Shown piece by piece: positions 12,941 to 47,363 of a DNA stretch of 64,000 nt. The notes under the pieces were generated by a model, which did not search any database, was not told the origin of the DNA, and saw only the letters and a list, made by a program, of their open reading frames with translations. Every line of letters begins with the position of its first letter. The first letter of the stretch is position 1. The position numbers and the translations under genes are program-made. This stretch comes from Candidatus Woesearchaeota archaeon. Its GTDB lineage: Archaea > Nanobdellota > Nanobdellia > Pacearchaeales > GW2011-AR1. Location: positions 276,820-340,819 of the forward strand of contig CAZOEF010000001.1 in NCBI GenBank assembly GCA_964578845.1. Reading direction: 5' to 3'.

Positions 12941-13101
12941 TATTGGGACAATTATACCACTAGTTAAATTTCTTATCGCATCTTCAGGAATTGGCCTCAT
13001 GGCTGCAGACCGCTGATAAGGAACAATAATTGGAACAGATTCTCCATTATTTAAATTTATTCTTTAAATTACCCTTCTTTAGTTACAACATTATAGAAAG
13101 G

Positions 13102-13109
13102 TTTATATA
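13102..13109 (+). promoter_or_regulatory. TATA box (TTTATATA) about 26 nt upstream of the trmB-like ATG; implies a leaderless mRNA
   Basis: aaaggTTTATATAgtg is centred about 26 nt before the ATG at 13132. No SD sequence lies between them. Confidence 0.45.
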
Positions 13110-13131
13110 GTGATATTTTTGTTACTTTCGT

Positions 13132-13905: not shown

Positions 13906-13971
13906 TCTCATTTTTTAGACCGTACTATTTTCGGGACTCTGATTAAAATATAATCTTTAGTGAATTAACTC

Positions 13972-15279
13972 ATGGTTTCACTTGAAGATTTGATTATAGA
14001 AACAGATCTTTTGGCAAATATTCCTGAAAAGGAGCAAAATACCCTTAGAATAAAATATCCCATAAAGGACAGGATTCTTCTTGATTTTTTAGCAGGAAAG
14101 TCTTTGCAAGATTATAATAGGGCAATTAATGGAAAAGATCACTTAGAGCTATTGAGCCATAATTGCATGGACTCATTTAATGAAGTACAGCTAATGACTC
14201 CTATGAAACAGTTATCAATGCTGGCTTATCAGACCCTGATATGCTCAAAGGAGGTAAGGAGTATGCTTCCTTCAAAAGCCTCGCAAGAAACTAAAAAAAG
14301 AGCATTGCTCCTGGATAGCTTATTAAATGAATTAACAGAAGAGAGAAAGGCAAAAGCATTATGCAATGATGTTAATGAATCAGTAAAAGAAGCTTGCCTA
14401 TTATATATAATCCAAAAAACCTGCTTAAGAATAGGGAATGAAAATTCAGATATAGATAATTTCAACAAAAATCTTGGAAAGCTTGATATTCCCGATGGAA
14501 TTAAAAAATATAGCCAATACCTGCAAGACTCCCCTCCACAAATAGAATTAAGCATGGACCTAGAAGCTTCTCGGCTTTTAGAAATAAGGAAACAACTGCT
14601 TGATTCAAGCAGGGAATTATTGATTGAAAAAGTTAGAAATGAATATGGAGTGTATAGAAAAGAGTGTGAAAATATAGAAAAATTTGCAGAAAGATTACTA
14701 AAACCATCCCCTCAGCGGCAAGATATAAATGAACTAAAAAAAGTGATGGCCAGAGTAAATAGCATCTCAAAGGCTGAGAAAAAAATGAGAAGTGCAATCA
14801 ATTCTATTAGATTAGATGTCCCTGACCCTTGTATCCCTGAATATCTGGAAAGATTAGGTAAGACAATTACAAAGCTCAATGATGAATGCGATGAATATGT
14901 TTCCAAAAGCCCAAAAATACGCAGGATGATAAGAGAATTGCCCCGCATCAAAACAGAGTTCATAGGGTATTTGCAAAAAAATAGATTTTCCCGCTGCAAA
15001 AGAATAATCACAGATATTGAGTCAAGAGAAACCAAAACGAGCGATAATATGTATCTCGCTCCTATTTTGGAAGAAACGAATTACTTGTTAGATGACTTCT
15101 CAAAGGCAGCAATTGAAAATATGTCAAAGAAAGATGAGAAAATTTCACTGGAAATAGAAAGTTTTAGGTTGAAAAGAAATGGTTTTCTTGAAAGATTGAG
15201 CTCTTATATGGGAATTAGAGCGCTTGAGAAGCAAAGAAAAAATCTAATAGAATTAAGCAGAATGGTTACTTCTTTTTGA
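13972..15279 (+). CDS. hypothetical 435-aa helical protein
   Basis: Long ORF rich in K/E/L and helical in character. No TM helix and no recognisable catalytic motif. Its 3' end overlaps the convergent gene by 14 nt. Confidence 0.6.
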   Translation: MVSLEDLIIETDLLANIPEKEQNTLRIKYPIKDRILLDFLAGKSLQDYNRAINGKDHLELLSHNCMDSFNEVQLMTPMKQLSMLAYQTLICSKEVRSMLPSKASQETKKRALLLDSLLNELTEERKAKALCNDVNESVKEACLLYIIQKTCLRIGNENSDIDNFNKNLGKLDIPDGIKKYSQYLQDSPPQIELSMDLEASRLLEIRKQLLDSSRELLIEKVRNEYGVYRKECENIEKFAERLLKPSPQRQDINELKKVMARVNSISKAEKKMRSAINSIRLDVPDPCIPEYLERLGKTITKLNDECDEYVSKSPKIRRMIRELPRIKTEFIGYLQKNRFSRCKRIITDIESRETKTSDNMYLAPILEETNYLLDDFSKAAIENMSKKDEKISLEIESFRLKRNGFLERLSSYMGIRALEKQRKNLIELSRMVTSF

Positions 15280-16768
15280 CTTCTATCTTGAATCCGTCTT
15301 TTGCTCCCTCTAGCCCTACCCAATTAACAGCAGGGCCGCAATCACCTAATGCCCTGCAGACGTCTTTTCTCTCTTTTTCCCAGGTATCATCTAAGCATTC
15401 ACAATTATCCTTGCAAGACTCTCCACCGAATAATCCTTTTTCGAATGTGACTACACAGAGAGCATTTCCCTGGGCGCAGATCTGCTGGGCTTCAGTTCCT
15501 TCCCAGAAGTTTAATCCTGGAGGGTTCTTAGGCAAGCAGGCTCCATTAGCTGTTGAATTCCCTAATGTGACTCCCTCTTTCCAGATGCAGTCCCTTCTAT
15601 CAGTATTCTCGCAATCCTGCTGGTCTGTCTGGGCTACGCAATCCTGCCATCTGTTTACTCTGCAGGCTGCCTGAGAGAAACCATTTATGTCATCCTGAAT
15701 GCACTCTTCTGCACGGAAATCTGAGCAAGCTTCGACAACTTCTTCCCCATTTATGCAGATATGTTTGTAGAACCTGCTTCCAACTGAATTCTCTCCCACT
15801 CCTGTCTCTCCTGCATCATCATATACACACCAGCTCTCGCCGTGCTTGTAGTTATTGCCATTTGAGGTGTCTTCACAATTCAGGTCAGCGCAAATGAAAT
15901 CTCCGTAAGTAGGATTTCCTCCTGCAACTTCCTCGGACCTGCAGAAGCTTCCTTCAAGATAATTACAATTACCGCATGACGCGCTTCCGGCGTTAGCACT
16001 TCCTGGAGAGCAGCTTTCATCCTTAGACTTTACATTTGTCCAATATTCCTGGTCGTTCACTTTGGAAGCATCATAAATATTAGCAGGATTCCCGCATGTA
16101 TCTACGAAATAAACTTCATCTTTTCCGGGCATGCAAATTGTTTGCGTTGATGGGCCGCAGTTAGTGCCGAGCTCTTCTGCTGAACATAATTTATCCTTGA
16201 AGAAAGTTCCTGAACTTATTGTCCCGTTAGCTGTTGAAGATGAACCCTCACATTCTGCCCTCGTTGAGAATTTGCAGGTCCTCTCAAATTCAAATTCATA
16301 GACGCAGGCCCCTTTATCCTGATTCTGAACAGAAGCTATGCAGGACAATTCGTCATTTATGCCAGTATCATAATTTGTTTCAAGGCCTAAGGAAGCTGAT
16401 AATTTCTTACATCTGACTAAAGAGACAAAGGCAGCCTGATCCCCTAACATGCAGCAGCCTAGTTCGCATTGAGGAGGGGATTCTTCGCTCCAGACTCCTC
16501 CGTTCTCATTGCATACCAACTGAGGAGTATTATCTAAACAAGTCCCTTCGGTAGAATCATAACAAGTTCCCACCTTACAGAAACTAGTTGAATCACAACT
16601 TGTCGGCACTTGCCTTGAACCTGGAGCGCATTCATTGGCAGGAACATCCTGACAGTATGCACCAGTATTTGTCTGCTCGCAGCAAACAGTGCTCTGCTGG
16701 GCTGAGACTAGAGATATTGCGAATAAGAAAACTATTGCGGTCAATATTGAAAATATTCTTTTATTCAT
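15266..16768 (-). CDS. secreted Cys-rich protein, paralogue of the N-terminal ectodomain of the 1231-aa protein
   Basis: Signal peptide MNKRIFSILTAIVFLFAISLVSAQQ. Collinear with residues of about 100-560 of ORF 18210-21926 (GTCYDSTEGTCLDNTP/GTCIDPTEGTCLANTP; GKDEVYFVDTCGN/GKDEVYWVDSCGN; HGESWCVYD/QGESWCVYE). Confidence 0.85.
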   Translation of the reverse strand: MNKRIFSILTAIVFLFAISLVSAQQSTVCCEQTNTGAYCQDVPANECAPGSRQVPTSCDSTSFCKVGTCYDSTEGTCLDNTPQLVCNENGGVWSEESPPQCELGCCMLGDQAAFVSLVRCKKLSASLGLETNYDTGINDELSCIASVQNQDKGACVYEFEFERTCKFSTRAECEGSSSTANGTISSGTFFKDKLCSAEELGTNCGPSTQTICMPGKDEVYFVDTCGNPANIYDASKVNDQEYWTNVKSKDESCSPGSANAGSASCGNCNYLEGSFCRSEEVAGGNPTYGDFICADLNCEDTSNGNNYKHGESWCVYDDAGETGVGENSVGSRFYKHICINGEEVVEACSDFRAEECIQDDINGFSQAACRVNRWQDCVAQTDQQDCENTDRRDCIWKEGVTLGNSTANGACLPKNPPGLNFWEGTEAQQICAQGNALCVVTFEKGLFGGESCKDNCECLDDTWEKERKDVCRALGDCGPAVNWVGLEGAKDGFKIEVKKK

Positions 16769-17052
16769 GCTGCCTCACCTCTTAGGTATTTTATCTTCTT
16801 GTCAACCCATCTAGAATGCTCGTTATCTAAAGCAACCTTGAGAACATAAGCCAAGTCTTTAAAATCAGAAGGCATCTCTGCACGGCCAATCTTTTTTTCC
16901 ATAATCCTAACCTGTTTTGAAGCTCTATGATATAATCTTTCATATATCTGATTTTCATTTGGATTAATAGGATTAGAACTATCACAAAGAGTTCCTAATT
17001 CTCTAATATCTCTAGCAATTGCACGATAGGAGATCATGTTTCTTGTACTCAT
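16765..17052 (-). CDS. hypothetical soluble 95-aa helical protein (operon member)
   Basis: 4-nt overlaps on both sides. No TM helix. Shares an ERLYH motif with the upstream 122-aa product. Confidence 0.6.
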   Translation of the reverse strand: MSTRNMISYRAIARDIRELGTLCDSSNPINPNENQIYERLYHRASKQVRIMEKKIGRAEMPSDFKDLAYVLKVALDNEHSRWVDKKIKYLRGEAA

Positions 17053-17417
17053 GCTGCCCTCCTAAACATACCTGCTCTCTGATGATATAACCTCTCAAGT
17101 TCATGAGATTCTTCTCTTAATGTTTTAAGCAATTCCCTTTCATCACCTGTGGAGTCATAATGATCTAAAAGTTTCTGCGAGATATCATAATTAATATATA
17201 GCATATGAAGAGCAGCACCCACATCAGAAATTCGGCTTATACACTCCACTACAGGCCCTACCTCATTAAATGTTTTTTGATCTGCAATTTGGAAGGAATC
17301 ACCTAAGGGAGCTAATGGTTTGCTCAACGGATTGAAGATCACATTAGAAATGAATTCTCTAGCCTCATCAATTTTCTCGCTTATCCTTTCAAAATCTTCT
17401 ATAGTATTTCCTATCAT
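17049..17417 (-). CDS. hypothetical soluble 122-aa helical protein (operon member)
   Basis: 4-nt overlaps on both sides. No TM helix. C-terminal LERLYHQRA motif. Confidence 0.6.
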   Translation of the reverse strand: MIGNTIEDFERISEKIDEAREFISNVIFNPLSKPLAPLGDSFQIADQKTFNEVGPVVECISRISDVGAALHMLYINYDISQKLLDHYDSTGDERELLKTLREESHELERLYHQRAGMFRRAA

Positions 17418-18217
17418 GCTTCCTCCAGGCCGTAACCTTGCGGCCAGACCAAGCTTCGCGATGCGAAAGTAAAACTATCCTGCGTCACTACATTGCTTAG
17501 CTTGTAAATAGTATCTCCATCCCTTTTTATCTTTTCTATTTTCAGGTCTGGATAATATTGCAAGTATAAAGTTGTTTCTGAATCGCCTAAAACAGATTCA
17601 AATTGGATAATGCTTACAGCAGTCATGAGCAAATCATAAAGCTCGCTGTCTATTCCTACAGCAAACTTCTCAAATCTTTGAGTGCTTTCCTTAGTTATTG
17701 CTGTAGGGGAAAGGAATTCAACTGATATTTTTCCAGTGTCGACATCAACATTGATTTCTCCTGGAGTTGATTGTACTGTGAAACCCCTAGATTCATAATC
17801 ATCTATCAAGTTGTTCATGCAATCCCTTGCTTTAGGCTCTACATAAGATTTTATTTCATTCTCTATGTGATTAACTAGTAAAGGCTGCTGGACTTTACAA
17901 GTCTGGTAATTCTGTGAAGTGTAGCAGAGATATTGTATCTTTTCTCCTTCGTATAGGACGAAGTTATTAGGATTTGTATATCCTCCTTGTTTGGCTAATA
18001 CATCAACTACAGTGTTTATTTCAGGCTCTATGCAATCCCTTAAGTAAGAGGCAGGATCTGTCTCCTGGCCGATATTGACTGATACAGGGCTGTTAGGCAA
18101 AAGGAAAAATATCACAACTACTGCAACTATTACAATAGCAATAATAATGAAAATAGCTACCTGACCTCTTTTATCCATTGCCAGAAAAGCCTGATTTTCT
18201 TTATAATCCTTACGCAT
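17414..18217 (-). CDS. class-III-signal (prepilin-like) protein, paralogue of ORF 21902-22675
   Basis: MDKRGQVAIFIIIAIVIVAVVVIFFLL matches the [KR]-G|Q + hydrophobic helix pattern of archaeal type IV pilins. GGAGG lies 4 nt before the ATG at 18217 (alternative start 18178). The globular part aligns with the 257-aa paralogue (QGGYTNPNNFVLY / QGGLVNPKDFVFY). Confidence 0.75.
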   Translation of the reverse strand: MRKDYKENQAFLAMDKRGQVAIFIIIAIVIVAVVVIFFLLPNSPVSVNIGQETDPASYLRDCIEPEINTVVDVLAKQGGYTNPNNFVLYEGEKIQYLCYTSQNYQTCKVQQPLLVNHIENEIKSYVEPKARDCMNNLIDDYESRGFTVQSTPGEINVDVDTGKISVEFLSPTAITKESTQRFEKFAVGIDSELYDLLMTAVSIIQFESVLGDSETTLYLQYYPDLKIEKIKRDGDTIYKLSNVVTQDSFTFASRSLVWPQGYGLEEA

Positions 18218-21200
18218 TATAACCTCCTGTTATTGCCAAGCATTCTCCTGGATTGCCAAAGCCATCTTTGCACTTGACATAATAATTAAGCCCTGTTTCA
18301 AATCCTGAAGTGTGGACTAGACCTTCTCCTGACATTAATGAACCATTCTCAAAATTGAATGAACAGCTATCATGAGAGTAGGCACACATTGCAGGACTAT
18401 CAGTCACTATGGTTAAGCCGTTTTGATTATATGCCCTTGTTATTAATGGGCCTTTATTATCAACCTCAATTGTGAACTGCGAATTTCCTGTGGCAATATT
18501 GCCTGCTGTATCTTCACAGCGGATCGCTATATTGTAATCCCTTGCTTGCCAAAGGCTTACATCCCTTTGTTTGTGGGTATTAGTTCCTGTTTCTAAAAAT
18601 TGGAAATAATTTCCACTTCCATCATGATCGTAAGAACATTCCCTAAGCGTATCTTCTGCCCCTCCAGAGGTTTGTACTTCTAACTGTATCTTAACAGGAA
18701 GGCCTGCAGAATAAATCGTCTCATTGTTTGGAGAGATAGATATTATCTCTAAAGGATTCTCAGTCCTTTTTAGAGTGTATTTAACACTTTCAGAATTTTT
18801 GTTCCGTTCCTTATTATCAGGATTGCTGACTTCTAGCCATGGCTGGTCCTTGCACCTGAAATTATATTCGCTTGTTTCATTATTTATTGGCAGAGTAGTT
18901 TCACAAAGCCATCCGAACGGTGTTGATTCCTCAAAAATTTGGCTGCAGTTCACTTCGTTAGCCATGACATCAAAGTCTGTATCTTGCTTATCCCAGCGGC
19001 ATTCAGAAGGCTCATTTGTATAGAAACTTATATCTGCTTCTGTTGCATTAAGCGCTACATGGCCATTTGACTGCGGATCAAATCTGGAGATTATCGGAGG
19101 TGTCAAATCATCCTCAGGAGAAATACAGAAGCTGACAGTATAATCTCTCTTGTTTGTGTTCCCAGTTTTATCACTGCAGCTTATATACATATTAAAGTCA
19201 GCCCTTTCATCAGGCTCTACTATGTCATCAGCACCTAATAATCCCAAAGAAGGAAGTCTATCCTGTATTAAGTGATTAGTTTTGTAAGAGTTTGAGCCTC
19301 CGATGAATCCTTCCATCTCTTCAAATGGCACCCTTAATTCAGAAGCTTTGCACTGGGCAGCTTCATCGACCTCTATTCCGAAAGATACTAATGAATAGGC
19401 AGGCAAACATCCATCGCTTGTTGAGCCTTCTACCCTAAAGCCTGAATCAGATACTTGTGAATAACTTAGACCATCGGATAACGCATCTTCGTCGGGAGAA
19501 ATTGCTGGAGCAGTCACATCATCCGGAGCTACATTAACACAAGCTTGATCAGAAGTTCCTTCATTGATAAATTCACATGTTTGGCCCAGGCTTTCACACT
19601 TGTATTTATTGCAAGGTAAACCATTATCTCCACATTGTCCACACATCTCCCCTCCCTTAGGGGGCTGCCACGGCAGGCATTGGAAAGAGATAAGCTTTGT
19701 CTTTTTCTTTCCCCATCCTAAAAGCCATCCTATACCTATGAATGCGAGAGTCGCTGCTGCTAAAATCCATCCTACAATTGGTATCCATACAGAAACTTGC
19801 ACTGCAACTAAAGAAAACCCTATAAGTGCTCCTGCTGCGGCCCCTGCAATTATTAATGCATACTGCCATTCTTCTGATAATCCTCCCCCTATTCCTGAGA
19901 ATTTTATGAGCATTGAGGTTATTGCTGCTCCGATCAATGCCCCTGCAACTACCCCTCCTGCTGCTCCTAAACCGGGCTGGACTGGACCAACAAAATCTGC
20001 TGGTAGGAATGCTGTACTTCCTAACAAAGTACCTTGTAGTACGCCTGCAGACCCTGCATAGGCCAAAGCTACTCCTGCGAAACCAGTTACTCCTGAAATA
20101 ACATCAAGAGCTAATTCCTCAGGATTATAGTTAGGATCAGTGATATCAAAACCGAACAATGCTGCAATTTCATCTTCGCTCAATGGAGAGGCGACTTTTC
20201 CAGGAATAGGGTCTTTTAATTCTTGCAGTCCTGAAAGATATTTTTCCCCTAGTTCAGGAGCATTTTTAATTGAATATCCATCTGTAGTATATTCTCCTAA
20301 AATGTTGACTTGTACTCCGCAGTCCCCCAAACTCATGCACAAATTGTTTAAGGTCTCTGTAAAATCAGCATCATCGCATCTTGCGTTTATTTTTGTTGAA
20401 TCTCCGAATGCTTCTTTGATAGTGATCTTTTTGCAGTTCAAACTAGCTAAAGCGCACTGAGTTTCTTTAGCAGAACCTCCTATCTCTGTGTTTAGATTAA
20501 AACCTGGCGGATATTTAGGAACACATAAATCAAATTCAAAAGTATCCTTGCTGCTTTGGGCCATATCTACATGCATGATCTTGCAATCTGTATTCTCTTC
20601 GCATTTTGCTAAATCATCTGGATCTTCATTTGCCTTAAGGCACAATGCCCATTGATTTGCCCTGCAGTCTGCTGTTGAAAAATCATTAGTGTTGGACTCT
20701 GTGCAAATTTCCCTCCTGCCCGGTGCACAGGATTCCAAAATGACTTCTCCATCCCTGCAAGTTGAAATATAGTGGCTGCTTCCAGGGACATCAACAGACC
20801 GTTGATTATTTCCTGTTCCTTCAACTCCGATAGCACTCTCATAAACGCACCAGCTTTCCCCTTGGCTTCTTTCGTTTCCTTGCTCGTCTATGCAAGCAAG
20901 ATCCCTGCAAACAAAATCTCCATCAACTGGGGCTTCATCCTGCTCGCGGGGAGTGCCGCAAACACTTCCTGCAGGATAGAAACAATTTCCGCAAGTCGAT
21001 TGCTTTCCTAAAGGATCGTTACCTTGCGTGAGAGTGCAGCTTTCTGACTTAGGCAAGACTAAACCATTGTTCCAGCTTCTTGCTTTATTAGAATCATAAA
21101 TGTTCTCTCTATTTCCGCATGAATCAACCCAATAAACTTCATCTTTTCCTTCAAAACATTGTGTAGAGACCTGCTTTTCACAAATTGTGTTTAATCCGAT

Positions 21201-21905
21201 ATTTGAGCATAATAATCCTTCATTGAATTCACCGCCTATTGCAGAGCATTCTCCTTTTGTAGTGAATTTGCAATCATTTTTACTTTCTCCCGGCACTTCG
21301 CCCAATACGCAAGCCCCTTCTGCCTGCTGATTGCCTAATGCCAAGCATTCTAACTCATTAGAAACTTGCCTGAACTCATTTTCTATTCCAGTTCGTTGGC
21401 TTAAAATGGAACATGTGCTTTCAGTTATATATTGAGCATTATCCCCAATAAGACAGCATCCTGGACGGCATTCTGAAAGCTCTGATACTGCTCTTTCGTT
21501 CCACTCTCCTCCAGATTCATCGCAAAGAACTTTAGGAGTGTTAGCTAAACAAGTCCCTTCTGTTGGATCAATGCAAGTCCCTAATGTGCATTCAGCAAAA
21601 TCATCTCTTTTCCCAGGAAAACAATTATCTGAACAATAATCGTTGCATTCACTTGATAGATATTCCTGACATTTTGTTCCATTCTTATTCTCTAAACATG
21701 TCCATACACTGAGGTCATCAACTTGTGCTGAAACTAACCCTGAAGAAAGCCAATCCAGAAGATGAGCTCTTGCGAATCTGATGAATTTACTCTCGGTGTC
21801 ATCAGCAGCTGCAACATATGAATTTCCCTGTGCTATAATGAATGCTATTGATATGCTCATTGTCACTAATAGGAACATCTCAAAAAAAGCTATTTTCTTC
21901 CTCAT
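18210..21905 (-). CDS. giant (1231 aa) Cys-rich surface protein with a central glycine-zipper multi-TM region and C-terminal beta-sandwich-like repeats
   Basis: The start is set at the ATG of MRKKIAFFEMFLLVTMSISIAFIIAQG, which forms an ATGA overlap with the upstream stop; the ORF-track start is 21926. It has a Cys-rich ectodomain, a Gly/Ala-rich hydrophobic block (about nt 19712-20105) and four repeats with a C-[RKAS]-[WY]-[SD] ... C-x-D-x2-GN pattern. Confidence 0.85.
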   Translation of the reverse strand: MRKKIAFFEMFLLVTMSISIAFIIAQGNSYVAAADDTESKFIRFARAHLLDWLSSGLVSAQVDDLSVWTCLENKNGTKCQEYLSSECNDYCSDNCFPGKRDDFAECTLGTCIDPTEGTCLANTPKVLCDESGGEWNERAVSELSECRPGCCLIGDNAQYITESTCSILSQRTGIENEFRQVSNELECLALGNQQAEGACVLGEVPGESKNDCKFTTKGECSAIGGEFNEGLLCSNIGLNTICEKQVSTQCFEGKDEVYWVDSCGNRENIYDSNKARSWNNGLVLPKSESCTLTQGNDPLGKQSTCGNCFYPAGSVCGTPREQDEAPVDGDFVCRDLACIDEQGNERSQGESWCVYESAIGVEGTGNNQRSVDVPGSSHYISTCRDGEVILESCAPGRREICTESNTNDFSTADCRANQWALCLKANEDPDDLAKCEENTDCKIMHVDMAQSSKDTFEFDLCVPKYPPGFNLNTEIGGSAKETQCALASLNCKKITIKEAFGDSTKINARCDDADFTETLNNLCMSLGDCGVQVNILGEYTTDGYSIKNAPELGEKYLSGLQELKDPIPGKVASPLSEDEIAALFGFDITDPNYNPEELALDVISGVTGFAGVALAYAGSAGVLQGTLLGSTAFLPADFVGPVQPGLGAAGGVVAGALIGAAITSMLIKFSGIGGGLSEEWQYALIIAGAAAGALIGFSLVAVQVSVWIPIVGWILAAATLAFIGIGWLLGWGKKKTKLISFQCLPWQPPKGGEMCGQCGDNGLPCNKYKCESLGQTCEFINEGTSDQACVNVAPDDVTAPAISPDEDALSDGLSYSQVSDSGFRVEGSTSDGCLPAYSLVSFGIEVDEAAQCKASELRVPFEEMEGFIGGSNSYKTNHLIQDRLPSLGLLGADDIVEPDERADFNMYISCSDKTGNTNKRDYTVSFCISPEDDLTPPIISRFDPQSNGHVALNATEADISFYTNEPSECRWDKQDTDFDVMANEVNCSQIFEESTPFGWLCETTLPINNETSEYNFRCKDQPWLEVSNPDNKERNKNSESVKYTLKRTENPLEIISISPNNETIYSAGLPVKIQLEVQTSGGAEDTLRECSYDHDGSGNYFQFLETGTNTHKQRDVSLWQARDYNIAIRCEDTAGNIATGNSQFTIEVDNKGPLITRAYNQNGLTIVTDSPAMCAYSHDSCSFNFENGSLMSGEGLVHTSGFETGLNYYVKCKDGFGNPGECLAITGGYNA

Positions 21906-22675
21906 AATCCTGCAGGTATCACACACCCCCTTATTGCAATATTCATCTCTGTCTGAGTAGGCTTATCTTTAATAGTATATATTTTTGTTGAATCTGAAAG
22001 AGTCCACTTCCTGATATCGAACTGTGGATAAAGTATACTATAACCATTGCTGCTGAAATAACAGAACTGGGCTTCCTGCCTTGTGATCTCATTTGCTACA
22101 TAGCCTAGATCGTAAAGCGGGCTATCCAGATTAACACTGAAAGAGTCAAAGCTCTGTGTCTGGCCATTCTTAGTTATAGCCATATCCCTTAGAAGATTTA
22201 TTTCAACTATTCCTGGCTTAAGGACAATATCTGTAGTGAAATCTCCTCCAGAGACTTCGTAATTCTTAGACTCTAAGTCATCTTCCAATGCGATAAAGCA
22301 TTGCTCTATGTCATCCCGCATATTAGCGCTCAATTCTTCCTGCAAATGGGTTATATATCTAGGGTATTGCGTCACACATGGCTCGTAATTATTTATGTTC
22401 TTGCAAACATATGTAACTTTGATATCATTATAGAAGACAAAATCCTTTGGATTTACTAAGCCTCCTTGAGGGATCATCAAATCAATTTTTTCCCTCGCAC
22501 TTTCCCTTAAGCAGGTCCTGAGAAATGCATCCGGACTTTCATCATTTCCAGTTATAGATAGCTCACCATCTTTAGCAAACATATAGATAAGAATTATAGT
22601 TCCGACTAAGGCTATGGCTATTATAATAAATATCACCATCTGGCCTTTTTTATTCATTGGGCACCTCTTTCTCAT
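21902..22675 (-). CDS. class-III-signal (prepilin-like) protein
   Basis: MNKKGQMVIFIIIAIALVGTIILIY. GAGGTG lies 4 nt before the internal ATG at 22657, which is the likely true start. Paralogue of ORF 17414-18217. Confidence 0.75.
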   Translation of the reverse strand: MRKRCPMNKKGQMVIFIIIAIALVGTIILIYMFAKDGELSITGNDESPDAFLRTCLRESAREKIDLMIPQGGLVNPKDFVFYNDIKVTYVCKNINNYEPCVTQYPRYITHLQEELSANMRDDIEQCFIALEDDLESKNYEVSGGDFTTDIVLKPGIVEINLLRDMAITKNGQTQSFDSFSVNLDSPLYDLGYVANEITRQEAQFCYFSSNGYSILYPQFDIRKWTLSDSTKIYTIKDKPTQTEMNIAIRGCVIPAGL

Positions 22676-22799
22676 ATAATAGTTTAATAGCCTCTTCGAT
22701 TGCGTGGGATTTGTTCCTATATCTGCCGATCTTTAAGATTCTATCTAGAAGCTTCGCTGTTTTCTCCTCTACTGTTGCCGATAACCTCTCTTTTCCCAT
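22650..22799 (-). CDS. ribbon-helix-helix (CopG/Arc-like) small DNA-binding protein, 49 aa
   Basis: Below the ORF-track cutoff. My translation is MGKERLSATVEEKTAKLLDRILKIGRYRNKSHAIEEAIKLLYEKEVPNE, which shows a beta-strand plus two-helix RHH pattern. Its 3' end overlaps the next gene. Confidence 0.6.
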   Translation of the reverse strand: MGKERLSATVEEKTAKLLDRILKIGRYRNKSHAIEEAIKLLYEKEVPNE

Positions 22800-22807
22800 G
22801 AAGTACC

Positions 22808-22843
22808 TTAGTAATATTTAGTAATACTTTTTAATATAAAGTA
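22808..22843 (-). promoter_or_regulatory. putative promoter (TATA TTTATATT, 22833-22840) plus two perfect 9-bp direct repeats (TTAGTAATA at 22808-22816 and 22818-22826) as a candidate RHH operator
   Basis: The repeats are spaced exactly 10 bp apart. They lie between the TATA-like box and the RHH start codon at 22799. Confidence 0.4.
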
Positions 22844-22887
22844 TACTTTATAATATTTAATATGATATATAAATATATTGATTTAGA

Positions 22888-22924
22888 AGCAATAGAATAT
22901 CTTGTACTTTTTCCTCGTCCTGTT
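22888..22924. repeat. decayed duplicate of the last ~37 nt (incl. stop) of the COG2865-like gene; direct repeat of 22994-23030
   Basis: aagcaatagaatatcttgtactttttcctcgtcctgt versus aagcaatagaatatcttgtaccttttccttgtcctgt (2 mismatches), with the copies offset by 106 bp (start to start). Confidence 0.8.
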
Positions 22925-22940
22925 CATCTTAATGTTTATG

Positions 22941-22993
22941 ATTGTGGAACATTGTGGGACATTGCGGGACATTGCGGGACATTGCGGGACATT
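22941..22993. repeat. 10-bp tandem repeat, 5.3 copies (ATTGYGGRAC; three perfect ATTGCGGGAC)
   Basis: Read directly: attgtggaac attgtgggac attgcgggac attgcgggac attgcgggac att. It abuts the stop codon of the gene at 22992. Confidence 0.9.
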
Positions 22994-24395: not shown

Positions 24396-24443
24396 ATTTT
24401 TTATGATTTAATATAATATAAAAACATAGTCATTCATCCATAT

Positions 24444-40633: not shown

Positions 40634-41104
40634 ATGAATAAAAGAGGAATAGAGCTATCCTTCAGCTTCATCTTCGCTGTGATATTGATTGGCGCTATAG
40701 TAGGAATATCTTTCTATGTGATAAACCATTTTTTAGTCCTTGGTAAATGCGCTGATGTTGGTTTATTCTATAAGGATTTTCAGGATGAAGTTGATGATGC
40801 CTGGAGGGCCGAGATATCGAGAAAGACCTTTGAAGGAACATTGCCAAATGGAATAGATGAAGTATGTATAGGCAATATAGGCCAGTGCAGCGGGGAAGAT
40901 TGCAATGAATTAAGAAAGTATACTATTTCCACTCCGAGGGCGAATATATTCCTCCTTCCTCCTGATAAGGCTTGCGATGCTCCTGCAGTAGAGATAGAGC
41001 ATGTTGAATACACAGGTTTTGAATGTATTGATGTTATAGACAACAAAGTTAATATCAGGCTGGAGAAGACAAGCACAGACAGTTTGGTAAAGGTAGGAAG
41101 ATGA
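40634..41104 (+). CDS. class-III-signal (type IV pilin-like) protein
   Basis: MNKRGIELSFSFIFAVILIGAIVGISFYVI. Cys-containing globular part. Confidence 0.7.
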   Translation: MNKRGIELSFSFIFAVILIGAIVGISFYVINHFLVLGKCADVGLFYKDFQDEVDDAWRAEISRKTFEGTLPNGIDEVCIGNIGQCSGEDCNELRKYTISTPRANIFLLPPDKACDAPAVEIEHVEYTGFECIDVIDNKVNIRLEKTSTDSLVKVGR

Positions 41105-41703
41105 TTCCTGAAGTAGAGTTTAGGTATTCTTGGGTGTATGATGATAAATTCAGAGTTAACCCCAAAATTCAAGATTTTCTAAAGAAAAACAGCAAAGATT
41201 ATCCTTCACATTTAGAAATTAAAAGGTATATAAAATCATTACAGAAAATCTGGTCAAAACAAGGCAATGAAATAATGAAGTCAATTTCTAAACATATTGG
41301 CCTTAAATGGAAGGAAAAAAAGATTATTGTCTATGTCATAGGGGCCGGTAGGCCATTTTCCGACCCTTTGACAGTCAGACTTTATGATAACAAAAATGAT
41401 TTTATCGACTCTCTATCCCATGAGTTGATTCATCAAATTCAATTTCAGAATGAAGAGACGATGAGTCTGTGGTTCAAATATATTTATAAAAAACATGAAA
41501 GTGAACAAAGAACTGTTAAGAACCATATATTAATTCACGCAATACATTCCAAGGTGATTCTGGAGATATTTAATAAAAATAGATTAAAAAGAGAAATTGA
41601 AATCTCCAAAGATTCTCCAGATTATGCTAGATCGTGGGAGATTGTGCAGGAAGAAGGAGCGGACAATATAATAAAGAAATTCAAGGAGTTGATCAAAAAA
41701 TGA
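41101..41703 (+). CDS. hypothetical cytosolic protein with an HExxH motif
   Basis: ATGA overlaps on both sides. SHELIHQ motif. No TM helix. Confidence 0.6.
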   Translation: MIPEVEFRYSWVYDDKFRVNPKIQDFLKKNSKDYPSHLEIKRYIKSLQKIWSKQGNEIMKSISKHIGLKWKEKKIIVYVIGAGRPFSDPLTVRLYDNKNDFIDSLSHELIHQIQFQNEETMSLWFKYIYKKHESEQRTVKNHILIHAIHSKVILEIFNKNRLKREIEISKDSPDYARSWEIVQEEGADNIIKKFKELIKK

Positions 41704-42632
41704 ACAAAAAAGGATTTGAATTCAGCTTCACATGGCTATTTGCGATAATCGTCGGGGCAGTAGTTATATTCATAGCAATATATGCTGCAGTCAGATTTGT
41801 AGATTTTGAGCAGACTGATATAAATGCTCAAGCTGGAGAACAACTAGGAATATTATTGAACCCTATTGAAACAAGTTTGGAGGATGGCAAATATTCTGTG
41901 ATAACCTTCCCTGATGAAACAAGGATAAGGAACAGATGCCTTGAACAAGGAACTTTCGGCCAGCAAGCAATATCTACAAGCATCAGAAGCGATATCGGGG
42001 AAGAATGGGTAGATTCAAGTGTTGATAATTTTTTCTACAATAAATACTTGTTCTCCAAATCTACTGAGCAGGGAGAGAAACTCCATATAATATCTAAATC
42101 ATTTGAAATGCCCTATAAAATTGCCAGCCTTATCTTTGCAACTAGCGAGGATTATTGTTTTATCGATCCCTCAAGTGAGATAGAAGATGAGCTGGAAGGA
42201 TTAGCTCCTGGAAACATAGAAGTAGTTAATGAGAAATCCCAATGCAAAAGAGGATCTATAACAGTATGCTTCAACCAAAGAAACTGCGATATTGAGGTGG
42301 ATACAAATAGCAAAAGCGTCTTCAAGGATGGACAGACAGTATATTATGAAGGCAGCTTAATCTATGGAGCAATATTCGCTGACAGTGGAATCTATGAATG
42401 CCAGGTAAACAGGCTGATGAAAAGGAGCGCTGAATTAGCTAGTTTGTATGCCCAGAAATCTGATTTCTTATCGTCAAAGGGATGCTCGAGCAACCTAGGA
42501 AATGAACTAAGGGATTTCGCGTCTATTACTGTAATAGGCCCTGAAGAAAATTCATTAAAACTGAAGAATATTTATTCCACATCTGAAAACTTGAGGAGGA
42601 AAAATGAACTTTTATCATGTGAGCTTTTCTAG
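41700..42632 (+). CDS. class-III-signal (type IV pilin-like) protein, 310 aa
   Basis: Start set at MNKKGFEFSFTWLFAIIVGAVVIFIAIY, which forms an ATGA overlap with the upstream stop. Confidence 0.7.
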   Translation: MNKKGFEFSFTWLFAIIVGAVVIFIAIYAAVRFVDFEQTDINAQAGEQLGILLNPIETSLEDGKYSVITFPDETRIRNRCLEQGTFGQQAISTSIRSDIGEEWVDSSVDNFFYNKYLFSKSTEQGEKLHIISKSFEMPYKIASLIFATSEDYCFIDPSSEIEDELEGLAPGNIEVVNEKSQCKRGSITVCFNQRNCDIEVDTNSKSVFKDGQTVYYEGSLIYGAIFADSGIYECQVNRLMKRSAELASLYAQKSDFLSSKGCSSNLGNELRDFASITVIGPEENSLKLKNIYSTSENLRRKNELLSCELF

Positions 42633-43122
42633 AGGTCAATTGAAAATACAGCAGATGGCTTTTGTATTAGTAGCGATGATGATATTTTTTTCAATAGCTT
42701 TACTATTTTATTTTTCTATAAGATATTCAAGCCTAGAAGGCAGTGCTGAAGACCTTAGGGCTTATGAAACAATACAGACCATCAGAAAAATGTCTTCCAC
42801 GCCTGAATTCTCCTGGACGGTCGAAGATTGCAGTTCCTGCATAGATTTAGACAAAGTCATGATGCTAAAAGAGAAAGACTCATATGACGGATTCTGGAAA
42901 AACACTGCTTTGTTAAAAGTTGAAAGGGTCTATCCGAAATATTCTGATGTTGAATGCACAAGAAATAATTATCCTGAGTGCAACTCTATAAGCCTGATAG
43001 ACACGAATAAAGATCTAGAAGGATATTCAGCTTTTGTTTCACTCTGTAGATTTGAAGGTTCTGAAGAATATAATAAATGTGAGCTAGGTAAAATAACCAT
43101 GGCTTTTGAGACAATACCATGA
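42604..43122 (+). CDS. class-III-signal (type IV pilin-like) protein
   Basis: MNFYHVSFSRGQLKIQQMAFVLVAMMIFFSIALLFYF. Confidence 0.65.
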   Translation: MNFYHVSFSRGQLKIQQMAFVLVAMMIFFSIALLFYFSIRYSSLEGSAEDLRAYETIQTIRKMSSTPEFSWTVEDCSSCIDLDKVMMLKEKDSYDGFWKNTALLKVERVYPKYSDVECTRNNYPECNSISLIDTNKDLEGYSAFVSLCRFEGSEEYNKCELGKITMAFETIP

Positions 43123-43613
43123 AAAGAGGACAGGAAGAGATAGTAGGGTTTGTAGTGATTATGGTGATAGTGGCTATAGTCTTCCTGATTTTCCTAGGGA
43201 TTTCAATCAGGACAGACACTGGAAGTGTTAGCGAAAACCCTCAAGTAAGGGATTTTCTGGAAAGCTCTATGGAATATACTACTGATTGCGCGACAAGATT
43301 CGCCCCTGACTATTCAACTATAGGCGAACTATTTGAAGAGTGCCATTCGGGCAGCAGATGCCTTGACGGAAAGGACTCTTGTGAAGCATTGAACTTAACA
43401 CTTTCAAGTTTGTTTGACTCTGCATGGCACATTGACAATAGGACTGCTATTAAAGGATATGAATTCAATTCTATATATAGATCATCTGATTCAGCAAGTG
43501 AAGCAATAATATCATTAAACAGAGGTGTATGTACAGGATCTATAAGAGGGAATACTTATCTCATTCCTGCATTTCCTGGAGACATCCAAAACACTCTGGA
43601 AATATGCTATTAG
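43119..43613 (+). CDS. class-III-signal (type IV pilin-like) protein
   Basis: MKRGQEEIVGFVVIMVIVAIVFLIFLGI. ATGA overlap with the upstream gene. Confidence 0.7.
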   Translation: MKRGQEEIVGFVVIMVIVAIVFLIFLGISIRTDTGSVSENPQVRDFLESSMEYTTDCATRFAPDYSTIGELFEECHSGSRCLDGKDSCEALNLTLSSLFDSAWHIDNRTAIKGYEFNSIYRSSDSASEAIISLNRGVCTGSIRGNTYLIPAFPGDIQNTLEICY

Positions 43614-43963
43614 ATCCTGACTTCTATGTTTAGAGTGTCCACTGAGATTACTGGTTTCAGTCTAGCCCGTTTCCCAGTCTTTTCCTCAACTAAGTCCAGG
43701 AAGCCGAACCTTTGGAGCAGCTTGACATCATCGCTTACAGATTTGAAATCCCTTCCAAGAATCTTAGCAAGATCATATATGGACTTAGGGGATTTTGTTT
43801 TGATTATATGAAGCATTCTTGCCTTTTCATTAGATAGAAGGTTCCGCAGTGCTGAAAGCCCTTCGAAGTCATAGCTATCACCTGAAAAACGCTTGAATAA
43901 CGACGAGAAAGTACCTTTCTCGTTTATTAAGGTGATCTGCCTGGTTTTAGTTTTCTTTGCCAT
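43610..43963 (-). CDS. winged-helix transcriptional regulator
   Basis: RMLHIIKTKSPKSIYDLAKILGRDFKSVSDDVKLLQRFGFLDL is a wHTH pattern. Confidence 0.6.
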   Translation of the reverse strand: MAKKTKTRQITLINEKGTFSSLFKRFSGDSYDFEGLSALRNLLSNEKARMLHIIKTKSPKSIYDLAKILGRDFKSVSDDVKLLQRFGFLDLVEEKTGKRARLKPVISVDTLNIEVRI

Positions 43964-46709: not shown

Positions 46710-46718
46710 ATTTGCTTA

Positions 46719-46750: not shown

Positions 46751-46811
46751 TTCACTTAAGGTCGGAAGACCCGAACTTAACATTTTTATACTCAAAAAGA
46801 GAGGATAATGT

Positions 46812-47363
46812 ATGAGAAGCATAACCTCAAGGGAGCAGATAGAAAAAAAACAAAAAAGGAATAAAGCAATCCTTGGAATAATAATAATATTCTTAATGGT
46901 GTTTAGTACTGCAGGATTTGCCATTTATCAGACAAGCGGAACAACCAGTACGCCCGACTCTACAGAACCTGATGACGGCCTTAATTTTAATGGGCAATAT
47001 TGGGTATATAATGTGAGCGGACAACCATTTTATTTCACTAATCTTCAGTCGCTCACAGAAGACATTCCAGTCGCTACAACTATTTCCCTGCAGGAATACT
47101 CAGGACAGGCATTATATATAGATTCAGAAGACCAGCTAGTCCTGAATGAAATAGGGGTTAATCTTGGAAGGTTCTCCAGCAGAATCCAGGAAGCATGTTA
47201 TGAGGAATGCGATAAAGATTTGCCCCGTAAACAATGTGATCAAAACCTGATCGTATATAGAGAATCTGAAGAAAATAAGGTTTATCAGGATCAAAAATGT
47301 GTATTTATCGAGGGAGATATCAAGGCCCTGGACGCATTTCTTTATCATTTGCTAGGCCTATAA
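46812..47363 (+). CDS. hypothetical N-terminally anchored exported protein
   Basis: Basic N-terminus plus TM helix ILGIIIIFLMVFSTAGFAIY. No family recognised. Confidence 0.55.
   Translation: MRSITSREQIEKKQKRNKAILGIIIIFLMVFSTAGFAIYQTSGTTSTPDSTEPDDGLNFNGQYWVYNVSGQPFYFTNLQSLTEDIPVATTISLQEYSGQALYIDSEDQLVLNEIGVNLGRFSSRIQEACYEECDKDLPRKQCDQNLIVYRESEENKVYQDQKCVFIEGDIKALDAFLYHLLGL

What the first reader, a model, noticed from the sequence alone, without database searches (positions are those of the whole stretch)
15266..22799. Seven-gene translationally coupled operon of prepilin-like, giant Cys-rich and small helical proteins under an RHH regulator; no described system recognised
Seven minus-strand ORFs run from 22799 to 15266, and every junction overlaps. 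There are ATGA overlaps at 21902/21905, 17414/17417, 17049/17052 and 16765/16768, an 8-nt overlap at 18210/18217, and an 8-26 nt overlap at the RHH junction.

Gene order:
1. RHH protein (49 aa, missed by the ORF track).
2. 257-aa protein with a class-III-like signal (MNKKGQ plus hydrophobic helix).
3. 1231-aa Cys-rich membrane giant.
4. 267-aa paralogue of the 257-aa protein (MDKRGQ...).
5. 122-aa soluble helical protein.
6. 95-aa soluble helical protein.
7. 500-aa secreted paralogue of the giant's ectodomain.

Beyond the RHH fold and the prepilin-like N-termini I recognise no named family. No pilus ATPase, platform protein or prepilin peptidase occurs in the 64 kb. The composition suggests a dedicated cell-surface or contact apparatus, which would be plausible for a host-dependent DPANN-type archaeon.
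Basis: partly seen in the sequence, partly recalled or inferred. Interest (0 to 1): 0.85.

Follow-up and report, generated by a model that had tools for sequence, protein, structure and literature searches.

The report
Conserved DPANN pilin-like surface-protein locus
This operon is the first half of an uncharacterised gene cluster found in hundreds of tiny, probably host-dependent Pacearchaeota-type archaea; it encodes pilin-like and cysteine-rich cell-surface proteins and usually sits next to the surface-layer (S-layer) gene, so it probably builds part of the cell surface, but its function is unknown.

Summary
Seven overlapping minus-strand ORFs run from 22799 to 15266, and both claimed paralogies are real: 257 vs 267 aa, E 3e-33; giant ectodomain vs 500 aa, E 7e-77.

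The conserved unit is not these seven genes.
- In 83 related loci, all DPANN (Pacearchaeota, Woesearchaeota or Nanoarchaeota MAGs), the core is a small DNA-binding gene, pilin-like 250 aa, giant, pilin-like 250 aa and Cys-rich 500 aa.
- This core is usually followed by a split paralogue of the giant's membrane and Ig-like half, four small pilin-like genes, a wHTH gene and the S-layer gene.
- In the window that second half lies at 40634-46709.
- The 122-aa and 95-aa ORFs are strain-specific inserts. The 122-aa protein is an ORFan.

Only RHH_1 and weak Big_13 Ig-like matches were found. A confident AlphaFold model of the 257-aa protein (pLDDT 91) has no Foldseek relative in PDB or BFVD. All six pilin-like families keep a [KR]-G-Q/F motif plus a hydrophobic helix. 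No pilus ATPase, platform protein or prepilin peptidase lies in the window, and no pilus-type ATPase Walker-A motif occurs in ORFs of the 83 loci.

Best reading: a lineage-specific, pilin-anchored surface assembly. Function is inferred, not shown.

The parts
22650..22799 (-). 49-aa ribbon-helix-helix DNA-binding protein, first gene of the operon. Its 3' end overlaps the next gene's start by 8 or 26 nt.
   Evidence: Pfam RHH_1, E 1e-5, 25.7 bits against a cut-off of 20.5. A homologue sits in the same position in 26 of 61 related loci. A ~62-aa wHTH protein takes its place in 22 of 61.
22800..22883 (-). AT-rich upstream region with a TATA-like TTTATATT about 40 nt before the RHH start codon; likely promoter (inferred).
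   Evidence: Sequence read. A 41-nt stretch (22843-22883) recurs at 78% identity upstream of the inserted gene, at 24394-24434. No transcript data.
21902..22657 (-). Pilin-like protein A: 251 aa from MNKKGQ (257 aa from the upstream ATG at 22675). It has a K-G-Q motif, a roughly 25-residue hydrophobic helix, a variable linker and a novel alpha/beta globular domain with conserved Cys.
   Evidence: 115 homologues, all without Pfam domains. 6679 cluster representatives at E<=1e-3. AlphaFold pLDDT 91.4. No Foldseek match in PDB or BFVD. N-terminal motif conserved in 54 of 58 orthologues.
18210..21905 (-). Giant, 1231 aa, 62 Cys. It has a signal-like N-terminus, a Cys-rich ectodomain (about 57-547), a glycine-rich hydrophobic cluster (about 598-732, probably 4 helices), a Cys knot and tandem Ig-like domains (735-1231).
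   Evidence: ATGA overlap with the upstream gene. Hydrophobic segments and Cys counts. Big_13 in 26 of 30 aligned C-terminal halves, best E 6.8e-9; DUF4625 in 23 of 30. Conserved glycine-rich membrane region.
17414..18217 (-). Pilin-like protein B (267 aa, or 254 aa from MDKRGQ at 18178), paralogue of pilin-like protein A.
   Evidence: 31% identity to A, E 3e-33. hhalign 100%. [KR]-G/A/S plus hydrophobic helix in 68 of 68 orthologues. Present next to the 500-aa gene in essentially every locus.
17049..17417 (-). 122-aa soluble protein. Strain-specific insert, not a conserved component.
   Evidence: No homologue in 83 loci. Only itself was found among 5.8 billion clusters. No Pfam, NCBIfam or PADLOC hit.
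16765..17052 (-). 95-aa soluble protein. Strain-specific insert, not a conserved component.
   Evidence: No homologue in 83 loci. In about 12 loci this junction instead carries unrelated small genes, including HEPN-like and nucleotidyltransferase-like ones.
15266..16768 (-). Secreted 500-aa Cys-rich protein (43 Cys), paralogue of the giant's N-terminal ectodomain and the best-conserved component.
   Evidence: 37% identity to the giant, E 7e-77. 1418 homologues. 34 invariant Cys in alignment A3. Median 63% identity to the loci, against 72% for PCNA. Relatives in 314 genome stretches.
40634..41104 (+). Small pilin-like protein (156 aa, MNKRG-IELSF plus hydrophobic helix, 6 Cys), first of the quartet that follows the Cys-rich genes in related genomes.
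   Evidence: The N-terminal 56 residues are homologous to those of the 311-aa protein (hhalign 96.8%).
41697..42632 (+). Pilin-like protein (311 aa, MNKKG-FEFSF plus hydrophobic helix, 8 Cys).
   Evidence: No Pfam or NCBIfam family.
42604..43122 (+). Pilin-like protein (172 aa, SRG-QLKIQQ plus hydrophobic helix, 6 Cys).
   Evidence: Motif in 23 of 23 orthologues.
43119..43613 (+). Pilin-like protein (164 aa, MKRG-QEEIVGF plus hydrophobic helix, 6 Cys).
   Evidence: Motif in 23 of 23 orthologues. N-terminal 45-53 residues align to pilin-like A and B (hhalign 88% and 82%).
43610..43963 (-). Divergent winged-helix regulator of the HVO_A0114 family, conserved between the pilin quartet and the S-layer gene.
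   Evidence: Pfam HVO_A0114, E 1.3e-16. Conserved position.
44367..46709 (+). S-layer protein (780 aa), conserved neighbour of the locus.
   Evidence: Pfam S_layer_C, E 1.8e-5, 24.9 bits against a cut-off of 23.9. In the same position in L001, L003 and 17 of 49 loci with enough flank.
46812..47363 (+). 183-aa N-terminally anchored protein with 4 Cys, conserved after the S-layer gene.

Best explanation
**What it is.** The finding is the first half of a conserved cell-envelope locus of Pacearchaeota-type DPANN archaea. It encodes a surface assembly anchored by type-IV-pilin-like proteins.

**Gene logic (shown).** A small DNA-binding protein leads the operon; here it is an RHH. Two paralogous modules follow. 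Each module is a ~250-aa pilin-like protein whose gene overlaps the start of a gene for a Cys-rich ectodomain.
- In module 1 the ectodomain is fused to a glycine-rich membrane bundle and a stalk of Ig-like domains. This is the giant.
- In module 2 the ectodomain is a free secreted 500-aa protein. In most relatives a separate gene (giant2) supplies the membrane bundle and Ig stalk.

**Proposed mechanism (inferred).**
- The proteins are exported.
- The six pilin-like proteins (two here, four at 40634-43613) are cleaved after the conserved Gly by a class III signal peptidase encoded elsewhere.
- Their hydrophobic N-terminal helices then root a short fibre or membrane-tethered cluster.
- This structure holds the disulfide-rich ectodomains and Ig stalks in or under the S-layer.
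- The role is envelope architecture, attachment to the host cell, or both.

**Not core.** The 122-aa and 95-aa genes are strain-specific passengers.
For: **Conserved order.**
- pilA-giant-pilB lies directly upstream of the 500-aa gene in 56 of 62 loci.
- giant2 lies downstream in 40 of 49 loci.
- The pilin quartet, wHTH gene and S-layer gene follow wherever the flank reaches.

**Fusion and fission.** The giant's N-terminal half matches cys500, and its half from about residue 610 to 1231 matches giant2.

**Pilin hallmark.**
- [KR]-[GA]-[Q/F] followed by 12 or more hydrophobic residues is conserved across orthologues of all six families.
- The families are alike only over the first 25-56 residues.

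**Surface location.** Signal-like or anchor N-termini, 34 invariant Cys in the 500-aa family, and extracellular-type Ig domains such as Big_13 and DUF4625.

**Coupling.** The junctions overlap.

**Core gene rather than accessory.**
- cys500 is 63% identical across the loci, against 72% for PCNA and 39.5% for the S-layer protein.
- The surrounding genes are housekeeping genes.

**Literature.**
- Archaeal type IV pilus loci often include S-layer-like, adhesin-like and Cys-rich components (PMC4858521).
- Pacearchaeota appear strongly host-attached (10.1101/2020.05.14.094862).
Against: - No assembly ATPase, platform protein or A24 peptidase lies in the 64 kb.
- No pilus-type ATPase Walker-A motif (G..G[SA]GK[ST]T) occurs near the cluster in the 83 loci; the single match is an unexamined 384-aa ORF in L045.
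- One paper states that type IV pilus components are missing from DPANN genomes (10.1101/2020.05.14.094862). A 2026 preprint finds such systems in some DPANN (10.64898/2026.04.22.720090).
- No curated pilin N-terminal model matches any of the six proteins.
- In the AlphaFold model the N-terminal helix (residues 3-27) is separated from the globular domain by a low-confidence linker. This looks more like a membrane tether than a fibre-forming pilin helix.
- A Lys-rich patch follows the last membrane helix of the giant. By the positive-inside rule this would place the Ig half in the cytoplasm.
- The high conservation of cys500 argues against a fast-evolving, host-specific adhesin.
- There are no expression, localisation or processing data.
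Confidence: 0.45

Rival explanations
1. S-layer anchoring or biogenesis scaffold. The membrane-embedded giant and giant2, the secreted Cys-rich protein and the N-terminally anchored pilin-like proteins would form the pillars that tie the anchorless S-layer protein to the membrane. There would be no fibre and no host-binding role.
For: - The locus abuts the S-layer gene and its wHTH regulator in related genomes.
- No C-terminal hydrophobic anchor segment was found in the S-layer protein.
- cys500 is conserved almost like a housekeeping protein (63% against 72% for PCNA).
- Relatives of cys500 were confirmed in 314 stretches of species-representative genomes.
- The helix-linker-globule model of the 257-aa protein suits a tether.
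- Membrane proteins with 2-4 TMs and extracellular Ig-like domains have been proposed as S-layer-associated proteins in other archaea (arCOG02884, PMC5898192).
Against: - It does not explain why six different proteins keep a class III-type cleavage motif.
- In the window and in several other genomes the S-layer gene is not adjacent to the core.
- There is no sequence link to known anchors. PF07760 was not matched.
Confidence: 0.27
2. Membrane conduit. The glycine-zipper helices of the giant and giant2 would oligomerise into a pore. The ectodomains would form an extracellular vestibule, serving uptake of host metabolites or lipids or an intercellular bridge.
For: - GxxxGxxxG runs in the membrane helices are visible in the window's sequence, and the region is Gly-rich across giant and giant2.
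- Pacearchaeota have minimal metabolism and appear host-attached (10.1101/2020.05.14.094862).
- The molecular basis of DPANN-host exchange is unknown (PMC11329633).
Against: - No transporter or channel family was matched.
- Glycine-rich helices also occur in simple packing interfaces.
- In the only resolved case, the nanotubes came from the host (PMC11329633).
- The window's genome lacks giant2 within the 64 kb.
Confidence: 0.1
3. Not one system. These would be unrelated surface-protein genes that stay together only through shared regulation or weak rearrangement in a small genome. The pilin-like N-termini would be plain uncleaved signal anchors.
For: - No known family ties the parts together.
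- The locus breaks after cys500 in the window and in several genomes.
- Foreign genes insert at its junctions.
Against: - The order pilin-like/Cys-rich is repeated as two paralogous modules with overlapping genes.
- It persists across loci whose proteins are only 40% identical.
- The fusion/fission pattern between the giant and cys500 plus giant2 implies a functional link.
Confidence: 0.1
4. Integrated virus or mobile element encoding envelope or fusogen-like glycoproteins.
For: - The large Cys-rich ectodomain with a membrane anchor superficially recalls viral or eukaryotic surface glycoproteins.
- The best, non-significant Foldseek hits were to an Entamoeba lectin and Plasmodium Pfs25.
Against: - The locus sits in the same chromosomal position next to PCNA and primase wherever the flanks reach (23 of the 83 loci).
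- GC content is the same as in the flanks.
- No integrase or capsid genes were seen.
- No fusogen fold match was found.
Confidence: 0.02

Closest known systems
Archaeal type IV filament (pilus) loci with minor-pilin sets, adhesins and S-layer-like proteins (Makarova et al. 2016, PMC4858521; 2026 preprint 10.64898/2026.04.22.720090)
   Same: - Several small secreted proteins share only a class III-type N-terminus.
- They are encoded with large Cys-rich and Ig-like surface proteins and next to S-layer-type genes.
- A quartet of small pilin-like genes resembles a minor-pilin set.
   Different: - No ATPase, platform protein or prepilin peptidase lies in the window, and no pilus-type ATPase motif was seen in the related loci.
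- No pilin profile matches.
- No obvious major pilin.
- The modelled N-terminal helix is short and followed by a flexible linker.
- All globular domains belong to unnamed families.
[quoted passage not shown]
   Same: Globular extracellular proteins carry pilin-type N-termini, which may serve as membrane or assembly anchors within the S-layer region.
   Different: - The bindosome proteins are recognisable solute-binding proteins and have a dedicated ATPase and platform pair.
- Neither is seen here. Foldseek found no binding-protein fold.
arCOG02884 / COG4743 (pfam07760): membrane-associated S-layer-like proteins with 2-4 TMs and an extracellular Ig-like domain, in the predicted arCOG01314 secretion complex (PMC5898192)
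   Same: Same general architecture as the giant's C-terminal half: a small membrane bundle plus extracellular Ig-like domains, close to S-layer genes.
   Different: - PF07760 is not matched.
- The partner genes of that system (MoxR ATPase, vWA protein, DUF4350 protein) are absent from the window.
Bacterial minor-pilin plus PilY1-type tip complexes (own knowledge)
   Same: About four minor pilins plus a large non-pilin adhesin encoded together. The adhesin is displayed by the pilin complex.
   Different: - Different domain of life.
- No sequence or fold similarity was detected.
- Here the large proteins carry their own membrane anchors.

Membership tests
Archaeal type IV filament system | Subunits with a class III signal peptide: a short charged n-region, [KR]-[GA] at -2/-1, then a ~20-residue hydrophobic helix. 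| tested here: inconclusive
   The motif is present and conserved in six families, and homology among them is limited to the N-terminus. No curated pilin or archaellin N-terminal model matches. FlaFind-type prediction and cleavage could not be tested.
Archaeal type IV filament system | Assembly ATPase of the PilB/ArlI/VirB11 family | tested here: not met
   None among 57 window ORFs scanned with Pfam. In the 83 loci only one ORF of 350 aa or more matches the Walker-A pattern G..G[SA]GK[ST]T, a 384-aa ORF in L045 that was not examined further. The rest of each genome could not be searched.
Archaeal type IV filament system | Platform protein (TadC/ArlJ/PilC) | tested here: not met
   No such Pfam hit in the window. 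Not searched in the related loci or elsewhere in the genomes.
Archaeal type IV filament system | Class III signal peptidase (Peptidase_A24: PibD/FlaK/EppA) | tested here: not met
   Not in the window. The only GxGD-type protease is a presenilin-type PSH at 12002-12940 (PF06550, E 5e-12; NF041679). A G[GAMSL]GD[VIAFLM][KR] motif scan of the 83 loci gave three matches, none a plausible peptidase: one lies within a giant and the other two flanking sequences are not hydrophobic. Genome-wide presence is not testable here.
RHH_1 / CopG ribbon-helix-helix DNA-binding proteins | Match to the Pfam RHH_1 profile above the gathering score | tested here: met
   25.7 bits against a cut-off of 20.5, E 1e-5, covering profile positions 1-39 of 39.
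Bacterial Ig-like domains (Big_13 and relatives) in the giant's C-terminal half | Profile match to Ig-like domain families | tested here: inconclusive
   The window protein is below the cut-off (17.1 bits against 27). However, 26 of 30 aligned homologous halves match Big_13 at E<=0.1 (best 6.8e-9), 23 of 30 match DUF4625 and 12 of 30 match Y_Y_Y.
arCOG01314-associated predicted secretion complex (PMC5898192) | DUF4350 membrane protein, MoxR-type AAA+ ATPase, vWA protein and PF07760 proteins in one neighbourhood | tested here: not met
   None of these Pfam families was found in the operon products or in the other window ORFs scanned.
Toxin-antitoxin module (for the 122-aa/95-aa pair) | Match to a known toxin or antitoxin family | tested here: not met
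   No Pfam, NCBIfam or PADLOC hit. The 122-aa protein has no homologue at all. Other genomes do carry HEPN-like, nucleotidyltransferase-like or PemK genes at the operon's junctions.
Class II fusogens (fusexin/HAP2) or viral glycoproteins | Three-domain beta-rich ectodomain fold detectable by structure comparison | tested here: inconclusive
   Foldseek of the 500-aa model against PDB gave no hit with E<=0.001 or TM above 0.1. The model has only pLDDT 69.7.

The most novel reading that the evidence does not exclude
Pacearchaeota-type DPANN archaea carry a lineage-defining envelope apparatus of a kind not yet described. Six pilin-like proteins would be used without a dedicated pilus motor. Together with glycine-zipper membrane giants and a highly conserved disulfide-rich protein, they would form the structure that attaches the cell to its host and possibly exchanges material with it.
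Probability: 0.15. Interest if true: 0.85.

Novelty: new variant of a known kind. Interest (0 to 1): 0.6.

Why it matters
- **Poorly understood organisms.** Pacearchaeota and their relatives are among the most abundant and least understood archaea in groundwater and lakes. None is cultivated, and their metabolism is minimal. One size-fractionation study suggests they are tightly host-attached (10.1101/2020.05.14.094862). How DPANN cells recognise, hold and exploit hosts is an open question (PMC11329633).
- **A defined candidate set.** This locus is conserved, sits among core-genome genes and is made almost entirely of unnamed surface-protein families. One component is conserved nearly as well as PCNA. 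It therefore gives a concrete gene set for the envelope or contact machinery of this lineage.
- **Large unnamed families.** The pilin-like 250-aa family has 6679 cluster representatives and the Cys-rich family has 1418 homologues. Both deserve curated models.
- **Possible implication for pilins.** If the genomes really lack pilus assembly genes, this would be a case of pilin-type proteins working without a pilus motor.

Tried and rejected
- **Profile searches.** Pfam and NCBIfam on all seven products and on the second gene set gave only RHH_1, HVO_A0114, S_layer_C and weak Ig hits.
- **PDB sequence searches.** Profiles of the 257-aa family, the 500-aa family, the giant and its C-terminal half returned nothing significant.
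- **Structure searches.** AlphaFold plus Foldseek returned no relative: 257-aa model against PDB and BFVD, 500-aa model against PDB.
- **Toxin-antitoxin or defence idea for the 122/95-aa pair.** No hits. The last homology search, spent on the 122-aa protein, showed an ORFan.
- **Pilus machinery.** Motif scans for a pilus ATPase and a GxGD peptidase in the 83 loci found nothing convincing. These scans are crude, and whole genomes could not be searched.
- **giant2 in the window.** It was sought by tblastn and is absent.
- **Bacterial-type promoter and terminator scan.** Matches were at chance level and do not apply to archaea.
- **Literature.** Six searches found no description of this cluster. 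The nearest lead is the DPANN-specific family cls.004306/NEQ255, described as "secreted protein next to S-layer-like proteins" (PMC6393860). It could not be compared because no sequence was available.
- **Virus or mobile-element origin.** Rejected on conserved chromosomal position and uniform composition.

Full report
**1. The observation**

The ORF list for 13000-25000 shows the seven minus-strand ORFs exactly as described:

| ORF | Coordinates | Note |
|---|---|---|
| RHH | 22650-22799 | 49 aa |
| 257 aa | 21902-22675 | second ATG at 22657 gives MNKKGQ |
| giant | 18210-21905 | 1231 aa from ATG; a GTG at 21926 would give 1238 aa |
| 267 aa | 17414-18217 | MDKRGQ at 18178 |
| 122 aa | 17049-17417 | |
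| 95 aa | 16765-17052 | |
| 500 aa | 15266-16768 | |

- The coordinates give 4-nt overlaps at four junctions, 8 nt at the giant/267 junction, and 8 or 26 nt at the RHH junction.
- The RHH is a bona fide RHH_1 match (25.7 bits against a cut-off of 20.5).
- Both paralogies are real. The 257- and 267-aa proteins share 31% identity (E 3e-33). Giant residues 57-547 and the 500-aa protein share 37% identity (E 7e-77).
- A hydrophobicity and Cys count gives 62 Cys in the giant and 43 in the 500-aa protein. All conserved products other than the RHH have an N-terminal hydrophobic segment, and the giant has a central hydrophobic cluster at about 598-732.
- The 122- and 95-aa proteins have no hydrophobic segment.

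**2. Where it comes from**

- The window is ordinary archaeal chromosome. It carries PCNA, primase, Mre11/Rad50, proteasome subunits, FttA, RNase J, FtsZ and ribosomal proteins L1, L10 and L11. GC content is uniform at 35-41%.
- Homologues of the 257-aa and 500-aa proteins that carry a source name are called Pacearchaeota or Nanoarchaeota.
- A scan of species-representative genomes confirmed relatives of the 500-aa protein in 314 stretches. All 80 listed loci are DPANN-type or unclassified archaeal MAGs: Pacearchaeota, Woesearchaeota, Nanoarchaeota, Nanoarchaeia, Parvarchaeum or "archaeon".

**3. The conserved unit is larger than the finding and differs from it**

Context look-ups and a synteny script over 83 loci give one recurring order:

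(617-aa Cys-rich surface protein, primase, PCNA) - small DNA-binding gene - pilin-like A - giant - pilin-like B - Cys-rich 500 - variable lipoprotein-like ORFs - giant2 - four small pilin-like genes - divergent HVO_A0114 wHTH - S-layer protein - 183-aa anchored protein.

- pilA-giant-pilB lies directly upstream of the 500-aa gene in 56 of 62 loci with enough flank.
- giant2 lies downstream in 40 of 49 loci.
- The quartet lies within 10 kb in 19 of 49 loci.
- giant2 (about 700-880 aa) aligns to giant residues of about 610-1231. The giant therefore equals cys500 plus giant2 as a fusion.

In the window:
- The quartet, wHTH gene, S-layer gene and 183-aa gene are at 40634-47363 on the plus strand.
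- giant2 is absent from the 64 kb.
- A single inversion of roughly 15266-40633 would restore the order seen in L001, L052 and L055, where cys500 is followed directly by the quartet. This is an inference.

Three ORFs have no homologue in any locus: the 122-aa ORF, the 95-aa ORF and a 200-aa ORF inside the quartet.
- The 122-aa protein has no homologue at all among 5.8 billion clusters.
- In most genomes pilin-like B abuts or overlaps cys500. In about 12 loci this junction carries unrelated small genes, including HEPN-like and nucleotidyltransferase-like ones.
- The two small proteins are therefore passengers at an insertion hot spot.

The leading regulator is also exchangeable. Of 61 loci, 26 have the RHH, 22 have a ~62-aa wHTH protein and 13 have neither. 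One locus has a PemK toxin pair there.

**4. What the parts are**

*Pilin-like proteins*
- The 257/267-aa family is large: 6679 cluster representatives at E<=1e-3, and the top 150 are all about 250-330 aa.
- It has no Pfam or NCBIfam model and no PDB relative by sequence.
- Its AlphaFold model is confident (pLDDT 91.4). It shows helix 3-27, a low-confidence linker, then an alpha/beta domain. No Foldseek match appears in PDB or BFVD, with TM below 0.25.
- Across orthologues, all six pilin-like families keep [KR]-[GA]-[Q/F...] followed by a long hydrophobic run. The motif is found in 68/68, 54/58, 23/23, 23/23, 19/21 and 19/24 orthologues.
- Profile-profile comparison shows that the families resemble each other only over the first 25-56 residues. 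That pattern is typical of type IV pilins.

*Cys-rich 500-aa protein*
- It has 34 invariant Cys.
- Its model is of moderate quality (pLDDT 69.7) and has no structural relative.

*The giant's C-terminal half*
- It is a run of bacterial-type Ig-like domains. Big_13 matches 26 of 30 homologous halves (best 6.8e-9), DUF4625 matches 23 of 30 and Y_Y_Y matches 12 of 30.
- A conserved Cys knot precedes the Ig-like domains.
- A glycine-rich membrane cluster, followed by a Lys-rich patch, comes before the Cys knot.

*Relative conservation, window against loci*

| Protein | Median identity |
|---|---|
| PCNA | 72% |
| cys500 | 63% |
| wHTH | 63% |
| primase | 59% |
| RHH | 57% |
| pilin-like B | 51% |
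| pilin-like A | 40% |
| giant | 39% |
| S-layer protein | 39.5% |

**5. What is missing**

- No pilus ATPase, platform protein or A24 peptidase was found among the 57 window ORFs scanned.
- The only GxGD protease is a presenilin-type PSH at 12002-12940.
- Motif scans of the 83 loci found no pilus-type ATPase or peptidase next to the cluster.
- Whole genomes could not be searched.
- The literature is divided. One study says type IV pilus components are missing in DPANN (10.1101/2020.05.14.094862). A 2026 preprint finds several filament systems in some DPANN (10.64898/2026.04.22.720090).

**6. Interpretation**

Shown:
- a conserved, duplicated module logic (pilin-like protein plus Cys-rich ectodomain, with or without a membrane and Ig stalk);
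- export signals and extracellular-type domains;
- linkage to the S-layer gene and to small transcription factors.

Inferred:
- The pilin-like N-termini are processed and root a short fibre or tethered cluster that holds the Cys-rich and Ig proteins in the envelope.
- I give this about 0.45.
- The main rival is an S-layer anchoring scaffold with no fibre (about 0.27). The near-housekeeping conservation of cys500 and the helix-linker-globule model favour it.
- A pore or conduit role (0.1), a non-system (0.1) and a viral origin (0.02) are less likely.

**7. Comparison with known systems**

- The closest described kind is the archaeal type IV filament locus with minor pilins, adhesins and S-layer-like proteins (PMC4858521). 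Three of its four defining parts were looked for here and not found, so membership is not claimed.
- The arCOG01314-linked predicted secretion complex has Ig-bearing 2-4-TM proteins (PMC5898192). It shares the architecture of one component but none of the partner families.
- Six literature searches found no description of this cluster.
- The DPANN family cls.004306/NEQ255, "secreted protein next to S-layer-like proteins" (PMC6393860), may overlap with it. This could not be tested.

**8. Verdict**

- This is a real, strongly conserved, uncharacterised surface-protein locus of a major uncultivated archaeal lineage.
- Function remains inferential.
- Interest is 0.6, and I class it as a new variant of a known kind.

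Noticed in passing
window 22992-24395 (-), with repeats at 22887-23030: A 467-aa gene (Schlafen AlbA_2, HATPase_c_4 and HTH domains; weak PADLOC hits to pAgo/SIR2-associated proteins) sits between PCNA and the RHH only in this genome. Its 3' end is duplicated as a 37-nt direct repeat (22887-22923 and 22994-23030, 95% identical). The repeat copies flank five copies of a 10-nt tandem repeat (22941-22990). A promoter-like 41-mer upstream of the RHH recurs upstream of this gene. It looks like an insertion scar.
   Followed up: partly
L-loci upstream of pilin-like A (e.g. L060 838-1026, L049 1387-1572, L071 974-1141, L086 4629-5200): The small DNA-binding gene that leads the operon is exchangeable: RHH in 26 of 61 loci, a ~62-aa wHTH with an SWNTA motif in 22 of 61, and neither in 13 of 61. 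One locus has an AbrB-like protein there and one has a PemK toxin pair.
   Followed up: yes
window 41101-41703 (+): A 200-aa ORF with an HELIH (HExxH) motif interrupts the pilin-like quartet only in this genome. It has no homologue in the 83 loci and no Pfam, NCBIfam or PADLOC hit.
   Followed up: partly
window 12002-12940 (+): A presenilin-type intramembrane aspartyl protease (PSH; PF06550, E 5e-12; NF041679) lies 2.3 kb from the operon's end. It belongs to the same GxGD protease class as prepilin peptidases but to a different family.
   Followed up: partly
window 26868-28721 (+) and 29586-30779 (+): Two further surface proteins. The first is a 617-aa protein with 28 Cys, a C-terminal membrane anchor and a Pro-rich tail; it is conserved next to primase and PCNA in related genomes. 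The second is a 397-aa protein with a similar Cys-rich stalk and anchor. Neither matches a Pfam or NCBIfam family.
   Followed up: partly
window 15266-15279: The 500-aa gene and the convergent 435-aa gene (13972-15279, +) overlap by 14 nt at their 3' ends. This point coincides with the break in synteny where other genomes continue with giant2 or the pilin quartet. An inversion of about 15266-40633 would restore the ancestral order.
   Followed up: partly
L043 11567-12187, L017 12455-13096, L082 3896-4582 and similar: Fast-evolving lipoprotein-like ORFs (lipobox-type LGGC, LTGC or LSGC) commonly lie between the 500-aa gene and giant2 in related genomes. None is present in the window.
   Followed up: partly
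window 35917-35987 (+): Rfam finds a second tRNA here (50.9 bits) that ARAGORN did not report. ARAGORN reported only tRNA-Pro at 53092-53167.
   Followed up: no
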